This document shows, piece by piece, positions 3,563 through 39,370 of a stretch of DNA of 64,000 nucleotides. The stretch is taken from NCBI GenBank assembly GCA_050747905.1, contig JBOGKQ010000003.1, positions 60,801 through 124,800 of the forward strand. Reading direction: 5' to 3'. Position 1 is the stretch's first letter. Each line of letters begins with the position of its first letter. The notes under the pieces were generated by a model. It was not told where the DNA came from. It did no database searches and saw only the letters and a list, made by a program, of their open reading frames with translations. The position numbers were made by a program, and so were the translations under genes. The DNA is from Terriglobales bacterium (lineage in GTDB: Bacteria > Acidobacteriota > Terriglobia > Terriglobales > SCQP01).

Positions 3563-3702
3563 AGAATGCGCGCAGCGCAGGGGCTGCACGTGAAGGTGTG
3601 GCCGTCGAGATCCAAGGTGGGCACTTTGTACTTGCCTTGATGGTGCGCTGCCACCCATTCCGCCGCCCTCTCGATCTGCTCGATGTTGATTTCCTCGAAT
3701 GT
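3520..3702 (-). pseudogene. C-terminal remnant of a glutaredoxin/NrdH-like protein; 5' part absent at repeat copy A
   Basis: Manual translation TFEEINIEQIERAAEWVAAHHQGKYKVPTLDLDGHTFTCSPCAARILQRELGL..; no start codon or CxxC before repeat. Confidence 0.6.
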
Positions 3703-4020
3703 TGGCGCGGGCCCCAGCGCGGCTGCGCCGCGCGCCCCGCTTATGCTCGCGTCGGGTTGCCCGCCCTGCTGTGAGTGCGCAGGGCGGGTTGGGGGCCCCT
3801 GGCCCCAACCCGACGCTGCGCCTCGCTCCCACCCCTAGGCGCAGGCGCCTTGGGGGCCCCGGGGCTCCCACCCCAAGGCGCAGGCGCCTTGGGGGCCCCG
3901 GGGCTGGGGCCGCGCCGGCATGTTTCCCCGGGGGCGCTCGCTGGGACGCTCGCCCATTCCGAATTTCGCAGCCCTTCGCGTCGATTTTGCCCACGGTGCA
4001 AAGCGGAGCGACCCCTGCGA
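3698..4020 (-). repeat. Modular palindromic element, copy A (longest; tandem 39-nt hairpin module)
   Basis: Long near-identical stretches shared with 33301-33540 and 38378-38656. Confidence 0.92.
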
Positions 4021-6434: not shown

Positions 6435-7757
6435 ATGGCACGAATTCGACCGTTTGCCGCCTACCGCTATGACCTGAGCCGGGTGCGCGCCGGCGATGTG
6501 CTGACTCAGCCCTACGATAAGATCAGTCCGGAAATGCGCCAGCGCTACCTCGCGGCGAGCCCTTACAACCTGGTGCGCGTCATCCTCGGCGAAAAGCAGG
6601 CAAACGACTCCGAGAGCAACAACGTGTACGTGCGGGCAGCCGACTTCCTGAATCAGTGGATCGAGCAAGGCGTGCTGCGACCAGACCCGGAGCCGTCGCT
6701 TTATCCCTATACGCAGACGTTTCGCGCGCCGGACTCGGGCAAGAGCTATACACGGCGCAGCTTTATTGGGCTGGGGGGTATGGAGGATTACAGCAAGCAC
6801 GTCATTTATCGCCATGAACAAACCCTGAGCGGGCCCAAGCTTGACCGTCAGGCGCTGCTGCGGGCCACCCGCACCCACTTCGGTCTGCTGTTTATGCTCT
6901 ACAGCGATCCTAGCCAGAGTGTGGAGAGGGAATTATTGGAGCGGGCACAGAATCCGGTCCTGGAGGCCACGGACGAATACGGAACCGAGCACCGCCTGTT
7001 CCGCGAGACCGATGCCGGCGTGATTGAGCGGCTGCAGCGAGCCATGGCGCCGCTGCCACTGGTGATCGCGGATGGCCACCACCGTTACGAAACCGCACTT
7101 GCCTGGCGCAATGAGCAAAATGCGCAAGCCCCGCACCGGCCCGATCACCCCTGGGACTGGACGATGATGACGTTCGTCAACCTGGATGCCCCCGGGCTCG
7201 TGGTGCTACCCACGCATCGGTTGATCTACGGCCTGCCGGGCTGGAACACGGCAGCGGCGCTGGGCAAGTTGGAGCAGTACTTCGCGGTTTCTCCCACCGG
7301 CATCCACGTCAACGAGAGCGATGCCGCGGCCCGCGTACGAAAGCTGCTGGCACAAGCCGCACCCGCGGGCCCGGTGATCGCCACGGCGCTCGCAGGCGAA
7401 CCGGAGCTCCTGCTGCTCCGCCCAAAGCCGGAGCTGGATTTGGCGGCGCTGCTGCCCGGGGAGCTGCCGCAACAGCAAAAACTAGATGTGGTATTGCTCC
7501 ATCGCCTCGCGCTTGAGCTGGCTTTGGGCGTGACGCCGGAGATGGTGCGTGCGGAGCAGCACCTGCGCTACGTCAAGGAGCCCGCCGAAGCACTGCGCTC
7601 GGTGAGCGCCAAGGCCGCCCAAGCAGTCTTCCTGCTGCATCCGGTGGCGCCGGCGCTGGTGCGCGACATCGCACTCGCCGACGGCGTCATGCCGCAAAAG
7701 TCAACCGACTTTTTCCCCAAGCTGCTGACCGGGTTGACGATGCAGCGAGTGGACTAA
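6435..7757 (+). CDS. DUF1015 family protein
   Basis: MARIRPF..QPYDKIS..HEQTL..IADGHHRYETA..MPQKSTDFFPKLLTGL. Confidence 0.85.
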   Translation: MARIRPFAAYRYDLSRVRAGDVLTQPYDKISPEMRQRYLAASPYNLVRVILGEKQANDSESNNVYVRAADFLNQWIEQGVLRPDPEPSLYPYTQTFRAPDSGKSYTRRSFIGLGGMEDYSKHVIYRHEQTLSGPKLDRQALLRATRTHFGLLFMLYSDPSQSVERELLERAQNPVLEATDEYGTEHRLFRETDAGVIERLQRAMAPLPLVIADGHHRYETALAWRNEQNAQAPHRPDHPWDWTMMTFVNLDAPGLVVLPTHRLIYGLPGWNTAAALGKLEQYFAVSPTGIHVNESDAAARVRKLLAQAAPAGPVIATALAGEPELLLLRPKPELDLAALLPGELPQQQKLDVVLLHRLALELALGVTPEMVRAEQHLRYVKEPAEALRSVSAKAAQAVFLLHPVAPALVRDIALADGVMPQKSTDFFPKLLTGLTMQRVD

Positions 7758-21184: not shown

Positions 21185-21526
21185 ATTGACTGGCGCGGGC
21201 CCCAGCGCGGCTGCGCCGCGCGCCCCGCTTATGCTCGCGTGGGGTTGGGGGCCCCTGGCCCCAACCCCACGCTGCGCCTCGCCGGGCGAGGGGTCGCGCC
21301 GTTTGCACCGTGGGCAAAATCGACGCGAAAGCCGCGGCACCGAGTGAGGCGGCCCGCCCCCGGTGGGTAAGCCGCGCGGCCCCCCACCGGCAGCCGCCTG
21401 GCCGCCCGAGCCCCGCGCCTATCATTGGAAGCGCCTGCGTTTTTCCCCGGGGGCGCTCGCCCGTTCCGAATTGCGCAACCCTTCGCGCCGATTTTGCCGG
21501 CGGTGCAAGGCGGTGCGCCCCCCGCA
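21185..21526 (-). repeat. Modular palindromic element, copy C (terminal module present twice, inverted)
   Basis: Inverted terminal module ~21288-21330 and direct one ~21455-21526. Confidence 0.9.
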
Positions 21527-21567
21527 TCCGGTATACCCCGTGAGGCTACGGCGAGGCTGGTATCGCT

Positions 21568-23758: not shown

Positions 23759-25801
23759 CTAGGGTTCCGGATTGGAACCTCCGGCGGATTGATGGCGGCG
23801 GCTCGGACCCTCCGGTTGCGTTTGCGGCAGTGTTGGAGCCAGGCGGGCTTCGGACTCGACGGCAGGAGACAGATGGACCGCTTGCCAGTGGTCGCCGCCG
23901 TCGCGGGAGCAGAAGGTCAGACCAACGGTGGCGGCGAAAGCATAGATGCCGTCGGGACGGATCTGAACTGAGCGGATATTGAGAGCGGGCAACCCATGAC
24001 CACTGCGGATCCAGTGCGCACCCTCGTCATGGGACTGATACAGGCCGGCGGTCGTGGCGGCCAGCAGCAGCGAAGGAGAGCCGGCCAGGGGGGCCAAGGC
24101 GAGCTGGTTAATGCGGGCGCTCTGGGCGCCGTCAAGCGAGAGGCGTCCGGAAAGGAAATGCCGCCCGCCATCGTCGCTGCGTAACACGTAGCCATCGCCG
24201 GCGATCCACAGCCAAGTGGAGCCGGCAGCCGGCTGCGGCGCTGCCAGTACGCGATAGAGCGGAGCCGGCGCGTTGCGCAGCAGAGACCACTGCAAGCCTC
24301 CGTCCCCACTGTAGTAGAGGCCCAGCTGCCCCGACGCCCACACTTGGGGCGAGCCCGGAGCTAGGCTGGCGATGGCATAGAGGGCACCGCGGGGCCACCG
24401 ATGATGCGGCTGTTGCCAACCCTTGGCGCGGCGCCGCGGGCCGCCGGAGGCGGGCAGCAAGTACAGACCCGCACGGGTGGCGGCGAGCAGGCCCTGTGAC
24501 GACCAGCACAGGCCCAAAGCCTCGGCGCGGTCGGGCAAAGGAGGCAATTGGTGCCAGGCAGCGTCCGAGGTTTGGAGGAAAACACCGCCCCACGTCTGGT
24601 CGCCGGTGACAGCCAGGTAGCGCCCGGCTGGCCCGATAGCAACGGCGGCCACGTGGCGGCTGGAAAAGCCCTGGTTGGAAGGTTGGAAGCTGGCGCCGCC
24701 GTCCTCGGAGGCGATCACACCAGCGAAGTTAGTACCCAGCAGAAGCCGGTGCGGTAGCGGCAGGACGGCGTTGATGCTCAATTGCGGCGAGGTGATGCGG
24801 CGCCAGTTGGCGCCACGGTTGTGGCTCACCCACAGGCCCTGGGTGGTGCCGGCGTAGATGGTGGCGGGGGCGTACGGGTCTTGCACGATGGCGGGCGTGC
24901 GCCGTGCCGAATAGGGAATACCCTGAATCTTCAGGAAATGGTTGCCGCGGTCCTGGCTGCGGTAAATGCCCGAACAGGCGCTCAGGTAGAGGGTCGCCGG
25001 ATTCTGCCGGTCCACGGTGATCGAGAACACGTCCGAGTCGTCAATCACACCTTGGCGCATTTGCCACCAGTCGTGGCCGCCGTTGACGGTTTTCCAAGGC
25101 AGATGCCACGTGCCGACGTAGATCTCCTGGGGGTTATGCGGCGAAATGGCCACCGACTCGACATTTTCGAGCTCGGGGTCGTGAGGTGGCGAGATGCGGT
25201 TCCAGGTTTGGCCTCCGTTCAGGCTGCGATAGACGCCGTCGAGGGCGGCGGCGATGAGGATACGGGGGTCGGAGGGCGCCAGCGCCAGCGCCCGGACGGC
25301 GTGGCCCAGCCACAGCGGCTGCCAGTTGCGCCCCTCATCGGCGGAGGCGAACACACCTCCGTTGCGGTCGGTCCAGCTCCACAGCGAGGCGTACCAGTGA
25401 CCCGGCCGAGCAGGGTCGGCTGTCAGCGAGGAGATGACCCAGTCCTCATGGTTGCCGATATGGCTGAAAAACTTCCAGCGCATACCAGCATCGGTGGAAC
25501 GGAACACGGCGCCCGTGGCGGTGCCGAGCAGCACGGTTTGAGGATGGGCGGAATCGGCGGCCAGAACGCGCACGGTACCGCCGGGTGGGGTGGCCGACAG
25601 GACCGGCGCCTGCGCAACCAGCGAGCTGGCGGCCGCGACGACAGTCAGGAGTGCCCGGGCGAGGTGGCCCAGCTGGCCCCGGGGCTGGGGCCGCGTTAAT
25701 TTCGCAGCCCTTCGCGCCGATTTTGCCCACGGAGCAAGGCGGTGCGACACCCGCGAGCGGACGCGCCAGGCGTCTCCGGGTTGCCGCGCCGAACGAATCA
25801 T
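23759..25801 (-). CDS. Secreted BNR/Asp-box (YCF48-like) beta-propeller protein
   Basis: Repeated S-x-D-x-G-x-x-W boxes; TACAAT 9 nt before ATG 25801. Confidence 0.8.
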   Translation of the reverse strand: MIRSARQPGDAWRVRSRVSHRLAPWAKSARRAAKLTRPQPRGQLGHLARALLTVVAAASSLVAQAPVLSATPPGGTVRVLAADSAHPQTVLLGTATGAVFRSTDAGMRWKFFSHIGNHEDWVISSLTADPARPGHWYASLWSWTDRNGGVFASADEGRNWQPLWLGHAVRALALAPSDPRILIAAALDGVYRSLNGGQTWNRISPPHDPELENVESVAISPHNPQEIYVGTWHLPWKTVNGGHDWWQMRQGVIDDSDVFSITVDRQNPATLYLSACSGIYRSQDRGNHFLKIQGIPYSARRTPAIVQDPYAPATIYAGTTQGLWVSHNRGANWRRITSPQLSINAVLPLPHRLLLGTNFAGVIASEDGGASFQPSNQGFSSRHVAAVAIGPAGRYLAVTGDQTWGGVFLQTSDAAWHQLPPLPDRAEALGLCWSSQGLLAATRAGLYLLPASGGPRRRAKGWQQPHHRWPRGALYAIASLAPGSPQVWASGQLGLYYSGDGGLQWSLLRNAPAPLYRVLAAPQPAAGSTWLWIAGDGYVLRSDDGGRHFLSGRLSLDGAQSARINQLALAPLAGSPSLLLAATTAGLYQSHDEGAHWIRSGHGLPALNIRSVQIRPDGIYAFAATVGLTFCSRDGGDHWQAVHLSPAVESEARLAPTLPQTQPEGPSRRHQSAGGSNPEP
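25675..25756 (-). repeat. Modular palindromic element, copy D, inside the 5' coding region
   Basis: GGCCCCGGGGCTGGGGCCGCG..AATTTCGCAGCCCTTCGCGCCGATTTTGCCCACGGAGCAAGGCGGTGCGAC; encodes RLAPWAKSARRAAKLTRPQPRG. Confidence 0.88.
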
Positions 25802-25899
25802 GACGGGGACATTGTAGCCAGTTGCAGAGAGGAAAAGCTCCAGCGGCGGCCTGAAGACCGCGGCTGGGTTTCCCCAATCGGGCGCGGTGGCGCCCTACG

Positions 25900-27957
25900 C
25901 TAGTGCTTTACGACGCTCTCATCGAACGGAACGCCGGCACCAGTATAGCTGGCGCCCTGGGGCACGATCCACACCTCGGCCTGATGCGGGCCGTCGGCCT
26001 GGCGTACCTCGATGCGGTCGCTGGCGATGCCTTTTTCGTTAACCAAATACTGTTTGGCATGCACCGCACGCTCTTCGGCCAGCCGCACCGTGGCCTCAGC
26101 CGACAGCGGCCGCCGGCGCTGCACTTCCGACGAGGTGGCGTAGCCGACGATCACCGCCTTGGCGGAGGCATCCTGCTGTAGCCGCAGGGCGACATCGTCG
26201 AGGGCGGCTTTGGCGACATTGTCCACACGCGAGCTGTTGGGCTTGAACTGGAATGTGGTTGCCAGCGACGCTTGCGGCGGCGGTGGTGGGGTTTGGATGG
26301 TTGCGCCGGCCGAACAACTGGCGGAAAGGCCGCGGTCGTCGGTGACGGTCAGGCGCCCGGTAACCGAACCCGGCGTGGCACCGGTGGTGTCCAGATGTAC
26401 GGTGGCCTGCGAGGTGCTGTCGAGGTGACCGGCGCTGGCGGGTTCCACCGTCCAGGCGTAGGTCAGGGGGCGGTTATCGGGACTGGATGCCTCGCCTGTG
26501 AGGGTCAGCGATCCGCCCGGCAGCACCGAGTCCGGGCTGACCGAGCAGGAGGCAGTGGGCGGGTGCCGCACGGGCTCGCGCACTTCCACCGAAGTCGAGC
26601 AGGAAGCGGTCTGGCCGGCAGCGTTGCTCAGCTTGCCCGTGATGGTGTACAGGCCGGGATTCAAGCCGGTGGTATCCAACGTCGCGGAGCCGCCATTGGG
26701 CGTCAGTTGGCCGCCGGTCGTGATCCAAGTGTAGGTATAAGTCTGGCCCTCGGGACTGACCGTAGAGGAGATCTGCACGCTGGTGCCCGGCTGCACGGGG
26801 CTCTGGTCGACCTGGCAGGCCAGCGTCGGCGGCGGCGGCGGCGGGGCCGGATGCGCAACCGGCGGACCAAAGCTCAAGCCGAACACAAAGCCGCTGGCAT
26901 TGGAGGCGGGCGAATTGCCGGCGAAGCGGTAGCCAGCGTTGATGCCCATCCAGGAAAGCGGGTTAAAGCGGATGCCGCCGGTAAGGTCGAGCGGCGCGGG
27001 CTGACCCAGGAACGGATCCGTGCTAACCGGGTTGGCACCAGCGCCAAAGTATTTGCTGCCGGCCAGCTCTACGATGCCCTGCAAGCGGCTGCGCAGCGGG
27101 AAGATTTCGCCGAAGCCCCAGTTGAATTGGTCTTGCAGAGGCAGGTACACGCCGTTCTTGTTTACCGTGCCGTTGTGCTGATACCCAAAATTGCCAACCA
27201 TCTCGCCGCCCGTGCCGATGCGCTTATCGAGCAACACGTTATATTCAAACCAGGGCTCCGTGGTGGTGACGCCATATAAAAGCGCGCCCTGGGTGAACCC
27301 CGTATGGTAAGGAACGTGCTCGCCGAACTGCAGGCCCAAGCCAAATTTATCGCCGCGGTCCTGGGAGAGCAGTCCGACGGTAGCGCCCAGGCTCCAATCA
27401 GCGGCGCCATGCAGTAAGGCGTTGCGCGCGAAGGGTGCCTCAGGATTGAAGCTGCCGAGGGTGCCCATAGGGCCGAAGGTCAACTGCTCGGGGTGGGTGA
27501 GGCGCACGCGCCGATAGGGCGTGGTGGCGAACGTCAACTCCAGCCAACGGGTGATACCGACGGTCCAGCCGGTATTCACGTCAGTGAATACCAGACCACC
27601 GGGTGAGCGCGAATAGCGCTGCAAGTACGCGCCCGAGCTGACTTGGCCGGGCGCCAGCGTCTCGGCGAATTGCGTGCCCCACAAACCCGGGGTGCCCGCC
27701 AGTGAGCCCTGCATCTGGCTGGGAATAAAGCTGCCGCTGTCGGCGGTGGCGGCCTGCGCCGCGGCGGCAAAGGCCTCAAAGGGGTTGGGCAGCGGCGTGG
27801 CCGCAACCGTATCCAGATGTAATCCGGCGGCGGGCAGGGCCGCTCCCGGCCCGCCATCGGGCGGGGTCGCCCACAGCGCCGTCCCGGCCACCGAAACCAT
27901 CACGGCAAGAGCAAAGCTCCTGCCAATCGGCATCCATGATCCTGCACGTACGTTCAT
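25900..27957 (-). CDS. OmpA-family outer-membrane protein with two Ig/PKD-like domains
   Basis: Signal peptide, barrel-like region, polyPro linker, two Cys-bounded Ig repeats, C-terminal NSSRVDNVAKAALDDVA. Confidence 0.85.
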   Translation of the reverse strand: MNVRAGSWMPIGRSFALAVMVSVAGTALWATPPDGGPGAALPAAGLHLDTVAATPLPNPFEAFAAAAQAATADSGSFIPSQMQGSLAGTPGLWGTQFAETLAPGQVSSGAYLQRYSRSPGGLVFTDVNTGWTVGITRWLELTFATTPYRRVRLTHPEQLTFGPMGTLGSFNPEAPFARNALLHGAADWSLGATVGLLSQDRGDKFGLGLQFGEHVPYHTGFTQGALLYGVTTTEPWFEYNVLLDKRIGTGGEMVGNFGYQHNGTVNKNGVYLPLQDQFNWGFGEIFPLRSRLQGIVELAGSKYFGAGANPVSTDPFLGQPAPLDLTGGIRFNPLSWMGINAGYRFAGNSPASNASGFVFGLSFGPPVAHPAPPPPPPTLACQVDQSPVQPGTSVQISSTVSPEGQTYTYTWITTGGQLTPNGGSATLDTTGLNPGLYTITGKLSNAAGQTASCSTSVEVREPVRHPPTASCSVSPDSVLPGGSLTLTGEASSPDNRPLTYAWTVEPASAGHLDSTSQATVHLDTTGATPGSVTGRLTVTDDRGLSASCSAGATIQTPPPPPQASLATTFQFKPNSSRVDNVAKAALDDVALRLQQDASAKAVIVGYATSSEVQRRRPLSAEATVRLAEERAVHAKQYLVNEKGIASDRIEVRQADGPHQAEVWIVPQGASYTGAGVPFDESVVKH

Positions 27958-28226
27958 CGTTCTCATGCCTCCTTGCAAGGGGGAGCCTGCAAGACACATC
28001 CACCGAAAAGCGGGAGTTGTCCCGTAGAGCGGGGGCTGCGCGGTAATGCTCCACTGTGACTTACGTTGGTTTTATTGTACATGACCGTGGAATATTTTGC
28101 CCATAACCTCCTCCAGAATTACTGTTATTCGAGAGATTCCGTTCCCCTATTCCGATTCCTGCACGGCTTGTGTCAGCGTGGTGGCGGCGGTCCTGCAGTC
28201 CAGCTCAGGGCTGCTAAAGTGGAGGC

Positions 28227-33300: not shown

Positions 33301-33540
33301 AATGTTGGCGCGGGCCCCAGCGCGGCTACGCCGCGCGCCCCGCTTATGCTCGCGTCGGGTTGGGGGCCCCTGGCCCCAACCTGACGCTGCGCCTCGCTCC
33401 CACCCCAAGGCGCAGGCGCCTTGGGGGCCCCGGGGCTGGGGCCGCGCCTGCATGTTTCCCCGGGGGCGGGCCGCCGTTCCGAATTTCGCAGCCCTTCGCG
33501 TCGATTTTGCCCACGGTGCAAAGCGGCGCGACCCCCGCGA
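33301..33540 (-). repeat. Modular palindromic element, copy E (simplest full-length form)
   Basis: 240 nt, near-identical to A minus its extra modules. Confidence 0.92.
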
Positions 33541-38285: not shown

Positions 38286-38377
38286 AACAGTTCCAGACTT
38301 GGTGTAACCCGCTCTGGGCGACCGTGGTACGGCTTTGGGGGGAGAAAAGCCGCATGCGCTTTTGTCCGCAGGGCCAC

Positions 38378-38656
38378 TCGCGGGGGGCGCGCCGCTTTGC
38401 GCCGTGGGCAAAATCGGCGCGAAGGGCTGCGAAATTCGGAACGGGCGAGCGTCCCAGCGAGCGCCCCCGGGGAAATACGCAGGCGCGGCCCCCGCGAGGC
38501 GCCGCGTCGGGTTGGGGCCAGGGGCCCCCAACCCCGCCCTGCGCACTCACAGCAGGGCGGGCAACCCGACGCGAGCATAAGCGGGGCGCGCGGCGCAATT
38601 CACCCGGTGCAGTTCCAGCAGGGCGGCGCAGCCGCGCTGGGGCCCGCGCCAACATC
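38378..38656 (+). repeat. Modular palindromic element, copy F (279 nt, opposite strand)
   Basis: Reverse complement of A/E with an extra 25-nt insert between GCGGCGCA direct repeats. Confidence 0.92.
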
Positions 38657-38677
38657 GGTTGGTCTGGAACTGCTCTA

Positions 38678-39370
38678 ATGCCGAGGCTGGCAGGCACGCT
38701 GCTGGCGTTGGGCCTGCTGGCGGCGGCGCAGTCGCCGTGGAAGCCGATCCGCGGCATCGGCGCGCGCCTGTGGCACGGAACCCGAGCGCTGCCGCGGGCG
38801 GCGGTGCGCGACTGGCGGCTTACGGTTCCGCTCGTGGCGGCCACGGGCGCCCTGATCGCCTGGGGTGACGCGCCCCTGTCCGGGCGGATTCAGTCTCCGG
38901 CGCTGGAGCGCACCAGCAGGGTTTGGTCGGACCGGGGGCTGCTGGAAATCGAGCCCGCCTTCGCGCTATTGTCGGTGGCGCTGGAGGATCATTGCCTGAT
39001 TTGCCCCTCCACCAGCCGCTTTGCCCTTGCGGCGATGATCACCGAGGGCTACACCACGGCGGCGGTCCAGGCGGTGAAGTACGTTGCCGGCCGGGAACGT
39101 CCCTACACTTCGCACGACGGTGACGGTGGATTCAATGAAGGCGGGCGCTCGTTTCCCTCGGGCCACGCGGCGGGCGCGTTTGCCCTGGCGGAGCTGCTGT
39201 ACCTTCACGATCCCGGCGCCAGCTGGGCCAACCGCGTCACCTTCGCGCTGGCAGGTGGAGTCACGGCGGCGCGCTTCACCGCCAAGGAACACTTCCCTTC
39301 CGACCTTCTGGCGGGCGCGACCCTGGGACTGCTCCTCGGCCGCTGCGCCCAGGCCTGTCCTAAAAGCTGA
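38678..39370 (+). CDS. PAP2-family phosphatase (alternative in-frame start at 38354 upstream of copy F)
   Basis: GRERP, SFPSGHA, RFTAKEHFPSD. Confidence 0.85.
   Translation: MPRLAGTLLALGLLAAAQSPWKPIRGIGARLWHGTRALPRAAVRDWRLTVPLVAATGALIAWGDAPLSGRIQSPALERTSRVWSDRGLLEIEPAFALLSVALEDHCLICPSTSRFALAAMITEGYTTAAVQAVKYVAGRERPYTSHDGDGGFNEGGRSFPSGHAAGAFALAELLYLHDPGASWANRVTFALAGGVTAARFTAKEHFPSDLLAGATLGLLLGRCAQACPKS

What the first reader, a model, noticed from the sequence alone, without database searches (positions are those of the whole stretch)
25675..25801. Repeat copy D sits in frame inside the N-terminus of a secreted beta-propeller protein
Seen: ATG 25801 has TACAAT 9 nt upstream, and no ATG/GTG/TTG lies in frame between the element and the hydrophobic segment ARALLTVVAAASSLVAQA. 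The element therefore encodes RLAPWAKSARRAAKLTRPQPRG within the signal-peptide n-region. Precedent: Rickettsia palindromic elements inserted in frame in proteins. Inference: the element is tolerated in, or even supplies basic residues to, signal peptides.
Basis: partly seen in the sequence, partly recalled or inferred. Interest (0 to 1): 0.75.

Follow-up and report, generated by a model that had tools for sequence, protein, structure and literature searches.

The report
Repeat inserted in a signal peptide
A 111-base fragment of this soil-type bacterium's commonest junk-like repeat sits in frame between the start codon and the export signal of a secreted propeller protein. It probably does no harm there because that part of the protein is cut off after export, so this is a tidy example of a known phenomenon, not a new mechanism.

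Summary
The 680-aa BNR/Sortilin-type beta-propeller gene (23759-25801, minus strand) starts at an ATG preceded by TACAAT-N9. Ten orthologous loci share this arrangement. After M-x-R their 22-30-aa signal peptides run straight into the hydrophobic core.

The window has 37 extra codons (25676-25786) between codon 5 and QLGHLAR-ALLTVVAAASSLV-AQA. The insert is a truncated mosaic of the genome's GC-rich palindromic repeats:
- Z' module, 25758-25787
- 60-nt core, 25698-25757 (92 genomic copies)
- 21-nt hairpin unit, 25675-25695

It is a multiple of three long, stop-free and identical in two assemblies. No ATG/GTG/TTG lies between it and the hydrophobic core. A signal-bearing product therefore needs translation through the insert, giving a 49-aa n-region of about +12 charge. 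Translation and export are inferred, not shown.

The open frame is not remarkable, because all six frames of these repeats are stop-poor. "Supplies basic residues" has no support: about 97% of 457 repeat regions are outside genes, and copy F has its own ATG.

The same repeats do sit in frame in two conserved proteins elsewhere in the genome: 70 aa in a YjbQ protein and about 36 aa in an ABC ATPase domain. In-frame tolerance like that of Rickettsia palindromic elements (RPEs) is therefore real here. This is a new member of a known kind.

The parts
25811..25816 (-). -10-like hexamer TACAAT, 9 nt upstream of the ATG. It implies a leaderless or near-leaderless mRNA.
   Evidence: Sequence. TACAAT, TAGAAT, TATCAT or TACTAT lies 8-12 nt before the ATG in 10 orthologous loci. 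Such hexamers 5-12 nt before starts occur at 106 of 989 genes, against 14 of 1854 control sites.
25787..25801 (-). Ancestral start codon ATG (25799-25801) and codons 1-5 (MIRSA) of the signal-peptide n-region.
   Evidence: The closest relative L011 has ggCTACAAT-N9-ATGAGATTTCGTTGCC; the window has ggCTACAAT-N9-ATGATTCGTTCGGC. Orthologues begin MRFR, MRR, MRW, MLRF or MWRS.
25676..25786 (-). Repeat-derived in-frame insert of 111 nt (37 codons, R6-G42). Boundaries are ambiguous by 1-2 nt.
   Evidence: It is absent from all orthologues. It is stop-free in the gene's frame. Joining the flanks gives MIRSAQLGHLARALLTVVAAASSLVAQA.
25758..25787 (-). Z' module: GCGGCAACCCGGAGACGCCTGGCGCGTCCG. This is a truncated 5' unit of a second palindromic repeat family, missing 10 nt relative to its 40-nt consensus.
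   Evidence: Pattern and BLAST searches find 58 hits to the 40-mer consensus. The same Z-to-core junction occurs at C6:115461, C21:19369 and C28:778.
25698..25757 (+). 60-nt core unit of the main repeat family. It is antisense to the gene and forms an imperfect palindrome.
   Evidence: 92 copies in the genome. Copy D has 5 of 60 mismatches to the consensus. It folds at -24.2 kcal/mol, z = -3.0, in this orientation. It is present in 15 of 16 genomes of the genus.
25675..25695 (+). 21-nt hairpin unit GGCCCCGGGGCTGGGGCCGCG of the repeat. It joins the core through TT. The 47-nt unit that normally lies between them is missing.
   Evidence: 100% matches to more than 15 other copies.
25748..25750 (-). 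In-frame GTG (codon 18) inside the core. A copy-specific C>A change at core position 52 created it. No Shine-Dalgarno motif lies upstream.
   Evidence: Only 1 of 91 copies has A at that position.
25655..25675 (-). QLGHLAR: the native distal part of the n-region. It includes CTG codon 44 (25670-25672), the only near-cognate start candidate just after the insert.
25607..25654 (-). Hydrophobic core ALLTVVAAASSLV (25616-25654) and c-region AQA (25607-25615). Signal peptidase I is predicted to cleave after A65.
   Evidence: Kyte-Doolittle 11-residue means are 1.5-2.1 over residues 46-55. Orthologues carry equivalent h and c regions ending just before TPPGG.
23759..25606 (-). Mature BNR/Sortilin-Vps10-type beta-propeller, plus the stop codon.
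   Evidence: Pfam PF15902 (7e-20), PF02012 and PF14870. It retains every one of about 190 alignment columns that are invariant among 20 homologues.
25838..25856 (-). Terminator-like hairpin of the upstream PKD/OmpA gene (25900-27999). It lies between that gene's stop and the TACAAT box.
   Evidence: Equivalent hairpins occur in the orthologous intergenic regions.

Best explanation
A truncated 111-nt mosaic of the genome's GC-rich palindromic repeats became inserted between codon 5 and the distal n-region of the signal peptide of a secreted BNR/Sortilin-type beta-propeller. The mosaic consists of the Z' module, the 60-nt core and a 21-nt hairpin unit.

The insert is a multiple of three in length and has no stop codon. 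The gene keeps its ancestral promoter and ATG, which give a leaderless or very short-leader mRNA. Ribosomes starting at ATG 25801 therefore read through the insert and make a precursor whose n-region is 49 aa instead of 12 (11 Arg, 2 Lys, 1 Asp).

The hydrophobic core and the AQA cleavage site are untouched. After Sec export, signal peptidase I would remove the whole extension, so the mature protein would be unchanged. That is why the insertion is tolerated: it is a neutral or slightly deleterious passenger, not an adaptation.

Shown: the insertion, its composition, its frame, and the conservation of the start and promoter. Inferred: use of ATG 25801, export and cleavage.
For: 1. **Ancestral start.** Ten orthologous loci have a -10-like box 8-12 nt before the ATG, followed by a 22-30-aa signal peptide. 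The window has the same ggCTACAAT-N9-ATG as its closest relative.
2. **No alternative start.** No ATG/GTG/TTG lies in frame between the insert and residue 77.
3. **Empty site.** Joining the flanks gives an orthologue-like 28-aa signal peptide.
4. **Leaderless layout is common.** -10-like boxes just upstream of starts are about 14-fold enriched genome-wide, and only 34% of starts have an SD-like motif.
5. **The gene is intact.** It keeps every alignment column that is invariant across 20 homologues.
6. **The copy is fixed.** It is identical in two assemblies and supported in two or three cave samples with no empty-site allele. Five substitutions and two internal deletions relative to the family show it is not brand new.
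7. **Tolerance elsewhere.** The same repeats sit in frame inside YjbQ/UPF0047 (70 aa; 10 relatives are uninterrupted) and an ABC ATPase domain (about 36 aa).
Against: - There are no transcript, ribosome or protein data. Only DNA runs exist.
- A 49-aa n-region of about +12 charge is far outside typical Sec signal peptides, and no signal-peptide predictor was available. Export could be impaired.
- In-frame and stop-free status has a chance probability of roughly 0.2-0.25, so it is only moderate evidence that selection kept the frame.
- The Logan unitigs overlap by just 25 nt inside the repeat. Contiguity rests on the two assembled contigs, which may come from the same study.
Confidence: 0.7

Rival explanations
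1. The insertion is real and translated, but it cripples targeting or export. The allele would then be a loss-of-function or strongly hypomorphic variant that has not yet accumulated further damage.
For: The n-region is about four times the usual length and has 13 basic residues. None of about 20 homologues has anything similar. Chance alone gives an in-frame, stop-free insert in about a fifth to a quarter of events.
Against: The 680-codon frame is intact and every family-invariant residue is kept. The h and c regions are intact. The copy has diverged and been trimmed since insertion, which implies time during which the gene stayed open. It is fixed in all samples seen.
Confidence: 0.15
2. Translation starts at the in-frame GTG (25750-25748) that a copy-specific substitution created inside the core. 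This would give a 48-aa signal peptide in which two thirds of the repeat are still translated.
For: The C>A change that makes the GTG is unique among 91 copies. My crude codon-score gene finder preferred this start.
Against: No purine-rich Shine-Dalgarno motif lies upstream (gcgcgtccgctcgcgg). The conserved promoter puts the 5' end at or next to ATG 25801, which ribosomes would use first. One unique substitution among five is not unexpected.
Confidence: 0.07
3. Translation starts at a near-cognate codon just after the repeat (CTG 25672-25670). This would give an orthologue-like signal peptide, MGHLARALLTVV..., and the repeat would serve only as 5' leader.
For: It would restore a normal n-region. 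A weak GGGG lies 5 nt upstream of the CTG.
Against: CTG initiation is rare in bacteria (general knowledge). The upstream ATG is in frame with no stop, so ribosomes starting there read through regardless. This model does not explain why the insert is a multiple of three and stop-free.
Confidence: 0.05
4. The junction is an assembly artefact: a repeat-induced chimera, or a collapse of a longer element that would break the frame.
For: The genome is a 136-contig metagenome bin whose contigs often end in this repeat. Logan unitigs break inside the core and overlap by only 25 nt.
Against: Both flanks belong together by synteny conserved in all relatives: PKD/OmpA gene, then propeller, then sigma-54 regulator. 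Both copy-specific junctions are covered at equal depth without mismatch. A second assembly has an identical 316 nt in a 69.6-kb contig.
Confidence: 0.03

Closest known systems
Rickettsia palindromic elements (RPE)
   Same: Both are short palindromic repeats found in frame inside otherwise conserved protein genes, adding hydrophilic peptide segments without destroying the ORF. Three verified cases exist here: the signal peptide, YjbQ and the ABC ATPase domain.
   Different: The organism is a free-living Terriglobales (Acidobacteriota). No sequence relationship was tested or is claimed. Only about 3% of 457 repeat regions are intragenic, against nearly half for some RPE families (PMC10969869). 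There is no single conserved translated frame, since all six frames are similarly open.
[quoted passage not shown]
   Same: A small intergenic-type repeat is fused in frame at the 5' end of a gene for an exported protein and forms part of its predicted signal peptide.
   Different: In that case the repeat supplies the hydrophobic part of the signal, and the homologues' signal peptides are unrelated. Here the native start and hydrophobic core are both kept, and the repeat is wedged between them in the n-region.
REP/BIME mosaics of Gammaproteobacteria
   Same: Both are high-copy, GC-rich imperfect palindromic units combined in variable mosaics. Here A-module-to-core spans range from 111 to 525 nt. 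Most copies are extragenic and often lie a few nt after stop codons. Sequence is conserved across a genus.
   Different: The units are longer (up to 60 nt). No cognate Y1 (RAYT) transposase gene was found in this genome, and only 3 of 16 genus genomes have one, with no relation to copy number.
MITEs and IS200/IS605-derived palindrome-associated elements (PATEs)
   Same: They are non-autonomous, short and numerous. The precisely mapped YjbQ insertion shows no target duplication and sharply defined ends, as PATEs do (PMC3119063).
   Different: There are no convincing terminal inverted repeats (at most 7 of 12) and no target duplication, so this is not a classical MITE. No transposase is linked to it. 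Copy D lacks the A-module end altogether.
Extended signal peptide regions (ESPR) of autotransporters
   Same: These are Sec signal peptides with long N-terminal extensions ahead of a normal n-h-c core that are still exported (my own knowledge).
   Different: ESPR is a conserved, functional motif. This extension is a unique repeat-derived sequence in one species.

Membership tests
Rickettsia palindromic elements (RPE-like in-frame repeats) | Found in frame inside conserved protein genes, with the flanking protein sequence uninterrupted. | tested here: met
   The signal-peptide insert is missing from 10 orthologous loci. YjbQ residues 1-101 and 172-208 align to residues 1-101 and 101-137 of PDB 2p6c, and relatives are uninterrupted. 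The ABC ATPase domain has about 36 extra residues against ABCB1.
Rickettsia palindromic elements (RPE-like in-frame repeats) | A large share of copies lies inside ORFs. | tested here: not met
   76 of 91 core copies are intergenic by a crude gene finder. Most of the rest are ORF run-ins with a proper start or stop nearby. About 15 of 457 repeat regions are intragenic candidates.
Rickettsia palindromic elements (RPE-like in-frame repeats) | One conserved, selectively maintained reading frame that encodes a family peptide. | tested here: not met
   Each of the six frames is open in 58-74% of 72 long copies. Copy D, the YjbQ insert and copy F do share the same frame (SR.S.R.APWAKS.RRAAK).
Classical MITE | Terminal inverted repeats and target-site duplication. 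| tested here: not met
   The ends are TGTTGGCGCGGGCC... and ...GGCGCGACCCCCGCGA(G), with no flanking duplication in 86 paired copies. The YjbQ junctions GTTAT|CTCGCGG...CCAACAT|CGTCC restore the orthologous sequence with nothing duplicated.
REP/BIME | High-copy extragenic palindromic units arranged in mosaics. | tested here: met
   Core: 92 copies. A-module: 290. Z: 58. In total 457 regions make up 1.66% of the genome. The core folds as an imperfect hairpin with z = -3.0.
REP/BIME | Cognate REP-associated tyrosine (Y1/HUH) transposase in the genome. | tested here: inconclusive
   PF01797 is absent from this 97%-complete bin and present in only 3 of 16 genus genomes. Transposases are often lost from metagenome bins.
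Sec (signal peptidase I) signal peptide | Basic n-region, 10-15-residue hydrophobic core, and small residues at -3 and -1 (AxA). | tested here: met
   ALLTVVAAASSLV followed by AQA, with hydropathy 1.5-2.1. It aligns with the orthologues' signal peptides. The 49-aa n-region is atypical in length.
Sec (signal peptidase I) signal peptide | Actual export and cleavage. | not testable with these tools
   No predictor, RNA or proteome data were available.
Tat signal peptide | The S/T-R-R-x-F-L-K motif immediately before the hydrophobic core. | tested here: not met
   SARRAAKL (residues 28-35) lacks the hydrophobic positions and lies well upstream of the core, which starts at residue 50. Orthologues have no RR motif.

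The most novel reading that the evidence does not exclude
The GC-rich palindromic mosaics of this uncultured Terriglobales genus act as a recurrent source of new protein segments, an RPE-like protein-remodelling process in a free-living soil/cave bacterium. Under this reading, the 37-residue Arg-rich extension of this signal peptide has acquired a role of its own, such as tuning SecA/SRP targeting, delaying export, or serving as a cytoplasmic handle before cleavage.
Probability: 0.07. Interest if true: 0.7.

Novelty: new member of a known kind. Interest (0 to 1): 0.42.

Why it matters
- It gives a clean, comparatively anchored example of a small repeat landing inside a gene without killing it. 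The landing site is the n-region of a signal peptide, which is discarded after export, so its length and sequence are weakly constrained.
- In-frame repeat insertions, best known from Rickettsia, also occur in a free-living acidobacterium. At least three proteins in one 3.3-Mb genome carry them.
- There is a practical consequence for annotation. In this genus the repeats are so poor in stop codons that gene callers extend ORFs through them, at both 5' and 3' ends. Each such call needs comparison with orthologues.

Tried and rejected
- **Rfam:** a scan of the whole window at gathering thresholds gave no family.
- **RNA data:** only three DNA cave metagenomes hold the sequence, so no start mapping was possible. 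No reads or contigs skipped the insert, so no empty-site allele was seen.
- **Automatic alignment:** MAFFT misplaced the window's promoter in the intergenic alignment because of the insert. I aligned by hand on the TACAAT/ATG anchor instead.
- **Sigma-70 scan:** it found nothing in 25400-26000 because no -35 match exists. The -10 call rests on cross-species conservation.
- **An internal promoter or terminator in the insert (gene orientation):** none was seen. The only terminator-like hit in the repeat is on the antisense strand. The 5' 164 nt fold no better than shuffles (z = -0.25).
- **Tat signal:** rejected.
- **MITE features (TIR/TSD):** rejected.
- **RAYT association:** not found.
- **Frame-specific ORF design of the repeat:** rejected.
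- **Other 5'-end overlaps from my crude gene finder:** C28, C25, C49, C53 and C26, plus copy F, all have a canonical start downstream of the repeat. They are ORF run-ins, not insertions.
- **Scan for further D-like cases:** the output was mostly shadow ORFs. One possible case (C10:72317-72484, upstream of a sugar-kinase-like gene) has a TTG inside the repeat end and was not resolved.
Full report
**The gene and its context.**
The minus-strand ORF 23759-25801 encodes a 680-aa protein with Sortilin-Vps10, BNR and PSII_BNR matches. Its homologues are WD40/YVTN/BNR-like or "photosystem II stability/assembly factor-like" proteins of Terriglobales. The window is part of a 3.3-Mb, 136-contig, 65.6% GC genome bin whose sequence is held by cave metagenomes. 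In all relatives examined, a PKD/OmpA gene lies upstream and a sigma-54 response regulator downstream.

**Checking the observation.**
- TACAAT (25816-25811), a 9-nt spacer and ATG (25801-25799) are as described.
- In the gene's frame the only canonical starts before residue 77 are ATG (codon 1) and GTG (codon 18). CTG occurs at codons 44, 52, 61 and 68.
- The protein begins MIRSARQPGDAWRVRSRVSHRLAPWAKSARRAAKLTRPQPRGQLGHLARALLTVVAAASSLVAQA|PVLSATPPGG.
- The repeat is real. The 60-nt core at 25698-25757 (plus strand, antisense to the gene) has 92 copies in the genome. Other copies in the window lie at about 3699-4020, 21191-21535, 33302-33540 and 38374-38655.

**Anatomy of copy D.**
In the gene's orientation the repeat-derived stretch has three parts.
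- **Z' module, 25787-25758:** GCGGCAACCCGGAGACGCCTGGCGCGTCCG. This is a shortened first unit of a second repeat family with consensus GCGGCAACTTGGAGACGCCCTGAGCGCCAGCGGGCGTCCG. That consensus has 58 BLAST hits. Copy D matches 28 of its 30 retained positions and lacks 10 nt. The same Z-to-core junction is seen in other copies.
- **Core, reverse complement, 25757-25698:** five differences from the family consensus, one of which is a common polymorphism.
- **Hairpin unit, 25695-25675:** the 21-nt unit GGCCCCGGGGCTGGGGCCGCG follows a two-base join.

The 47-nt unit that normally separates the hairpin from the core is missing, and so is the A-module end of the element. Copy D is therefore a trimmed fragment, unique in structure among the copies listed.

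**Comparison with orthologues.**
The twenty closest homologues (55-75% identity) align from TPPGG onward. Most of them have 16-35-residue N-termini with a short basic n-region and a hydrophobic core. The window protein has 40-odd extra residues.

At the DNA level, ten orthologous loci show a terminator-like hairpin after the upstream gene. A -10-like hexamer follows 8-12 nt before an ATG, and the signal peptide comes straight after:

| Locus | Promoter and start | N-terminus |
|---|---|---|
| L011 (75% identical protein) | ggCTACAAT-N9-ATG | MRFRCLMPLWAALLFAAGLVAQ |
| L002, L006, L014 | TACAAT-N10-ATG | |
| L004 | TACAAT-N8-ATG | MLRFSAVVLLACLGG |
| L005 | TATCAT-N8-ATG | |
| L003 | TAGAAT-N12-ATG | MWRSFGVGLLAMG |
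| L007, L008 | AACAAT / TACTAT-N8-ATG | |

The window has ggCTACAAT-N9-ATGATTCGTTCGGC, against ATGAGATTTCGTTGCC in L011. ATG 25801 is therefore the ancestral start, and MIRSA the ancestral beginning of the n-region.

Removing 25676-25786 (111 nt, 37 codons; boundaries ambiguous by 1-2 nt) gives MIRSAQLGHLARALLTVVAAASSLVAQA. This 28-residue signal peptide resembles those of the relatives. The second refutation condition (an unrelated N-terminus) is not met.

**Is it more than chance, and is it real DNA?**
- The insert is open in two of its three sense frames.
- Across 72 long copies, each of the six frames is open in 58-74%.
- A random insertion of such a repeat would therefore preserve an ORF in roughly a fifth to a quarter of cases. 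The open frame is compatible with selection but does not prove it.
- Logan contigs at about 70x depth from the best-matching run cover 25300-25727 and 25703-26300 without mismatch. A second sample covers 25699-25861. No contig skips the insert.
- A second public assembly carries exactly the same 680-aa product on a 69.6-kb contig and is identical over 316 nt spanning the insert.

**Which start is used?**
This step is inferred. Hexamers of the form TAnn[AT]T ending 5-12 nt before start codons occur at 106 of 989 confident gene starts, against 14 of 1854 control sites. Only 34% of starts have an SD-like motif. Leaderless or near-leaderless mRNAs therefore appear common here, and this gene family conserves that layout.

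Such mRNAs are translated from the 5'-proximal AUG (established knowledge). That AUG is in frame with the hydrophobic core, with no stop between. The GTG at codon 18 arose from a substitution unique to this copy but has no SD motif. CTG at codon 44 would give an orthologue-like peptide, but CTG is a poor initiator, and that model would leave the 3n, stop-free state unexplained.

I therefore put about 0.7 on translation from ATG 25801 through the insert. This yields a 49-residue n-region (11 Arg, 2 Lys, 1 Asp) ahead of an intact h-region and AQA site.

**Why it would be tolerated.**
Signal peptidase I removes everything upstream of the cleavage site, so the mature propeller is unchanged. Extra positive charge on the cytoplasmic side agrees with the positive-inside orientation of signal peptides (established knowledge).

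The gene shows no decay: it retains every column that is invariant among 20 homologues. The copy carries several private substitutions and deletions, which suggests it has been there for some time. Export efficiency remains untested, and a hypomorphic allele is the main rival (0.15).

**What the repeat is.**
- The library of window copies marks 457 regions, or 1.66% of the genome.
- The main element has sharply defined ends: (A)ATGTTGGCGCGGGCCCC... and ...GCGGCGCGACCCCCGCGA(G), often followed by CGGAC from a Z unit.
- Between the ends lies a variable set of hairpin units. A-module-to-core spans range from 111 to 525 nt.
- No target duplication and no convincing terminal inverted repeat were found.
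- The core is an imperfect palindrome.
- Most copies are intergenic, and many lie 2-40 nt after stop codons.
- The core occurs in 15 of 16 genomes of the genus, at 1 to more than 200 first-look candidates. A species whose orthologous propeller is only 69% identical holds copies 100% identical to this genome's consensus.
- No Y1 transposase is present in this genome, and only 3 of 16 relatives have one.

These features fit a REP/BIME-like or PATE-like mosaic family. The mobilising enzyme is unknown.

**The wider pattern.**
The other cases where my crude gene finder ran an ORF into a core at a gene's 5' end all have a proper start downstream of the repeat. Copy F, upstream of the PAP2 gene, also has its own start: ATG 38678, MPRLAGTLLALGLLAAAQS. 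Several genes acquire 20-55-residue C-terminal tails from the repeat.

Two internal insertions are solid.
- **YjbQ/UPF0047 gene (contig C39:5704-6330):** it carries a complete 210-nt element, in the same orientation and reading frame as copy D. Residues 1-101 and 172-208 align to residues 1-101 and 101-137 of PDB 2p6c. Ten genus relatives encode the uninterrupted 137-aa protein at 79-87% identity.
- **ABC exporter ATPase domain (contig C28):** it has about 36 extra residues containing a Z unit, between the AYG and VSxxE positions of ABCB1.

Further candidates were not verified: a second BNR propeller, a GH15-like enzyme and a NadD-like protein.

In-frame residence in proteins is thus a recurrent though minority fate of these repeats (about 3% of regions). 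It resembles the Rickettsia palindromic elements in outcome but not in frequency, and there is no dedicated reading frame (PMC10969869).

**Comparison with the literature.**
In-frame insertions of small repeats are documented for RPEs, ERIC/RU elements, BOX, Coxiella QMITEs and cyanobacterial MITEs (PMC10969869, PMC5896051). [quoted passage not shown]

I found no report of a repeat wedged between a conserved start codon and an intact hydrophobic core. I also found no description of this acidobacterial repeat family. Those searches cover open-access text only.

**Verdict.**

Noticed in passing
G000:C39:5704-6330 (same genome, outside the window): A YjbQ/UPF0047 gene carries a complete 210-nt copy of the repeat (70 aa, residues 102-171) in frame, in the same orientation and reading frame as copy D. 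No target duplication is present. Ten genus relatives have the uninterrupted 137-aa protein.
   Followed up: yes
G000:C28, ORF around 7117-7161 (outside the window): An ABC exporter ATPase domain has about 36 extra residues containing a reversed Z unit, between the AYG and VSxxE positions of ABCB1-type domains.
   Followed up: yes
G000:C9:2267-2349, C27:37708-37797, C6:112726-112822, C22:7951-7992, C31:25758-25802, C48:1404-1456, C17:42547-42638: Further repeat fragments of 42-97 nt lie in open frames with coding-like sequence on both sides. The host genes include a second BNR propeller, a GH15-like enzyme and a NadD-like protein. They are candidates for more in-frame insertions.
   Followed up: partly
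G000:C48:16565-16623, C22:6243-6301, C57:6185-6243, C39:22301-22359: Four genes run out of their conserved sequence into the repeat and end inside it. This gives 20-55-residue C-terminal tails that all begin LAGVA.(L/F).T.GK. The original stop codons were apparently displaced.
   Followed up: partly
window 38374-38678: Copy F lies upstream of the PAP2-family gene in the same orientation and open frame as copy D. A canonical ATG at 38678 directly precedes a normal signal peptide (MPRLAGTLLALGLLAAAQS), so the 416-aa ORF from 38120 is most likely an ORF run-in, not an insertion.
   Followed up: partly
window 25758-25787 and 58 other places in G000: A second abundant repeat family starts (AC)GCGGCAACTTGGAGACGCCCTGAGCGCCAGCGGGCGTCCGTTGCCGG..., a long nested hairpin. 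It often begins 2-20 nt after stop codons and is sometimes fused to the core of the first family.
   Followed up: partly
genus genomes G001-G015: The 60-nt core is found in 15 of 16 species of the genus, with very uneven copy numbers (1 to more than 200 candidates). Species G004 has copies 100% identical to this genome's consensus although its orthologous proteins are only about 69% identical. This suggests recent exchange or strong constraint on the unit.
   Followed up: no
whole genome G000: -10-like hexamers ending 5-12 nt before start codons (peak at 6 nt) occur at about 11% of confident gene starts, against 0.8% of control sites. Only about a third of starts have an SD-like motif. Leaderless mRNAs therefore seem common in this organism.
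   Followed up: partly
G000:C10:72317-72484: A Z-family copy abuts the conserved N-terminus of a sugar-kinase-like gene (...LNLVVWGDLVADEFVDG...). No canonical start lies after the repeat. A TTG inside the repeat's last bases may now serve as the start codon.
   Followed up: no
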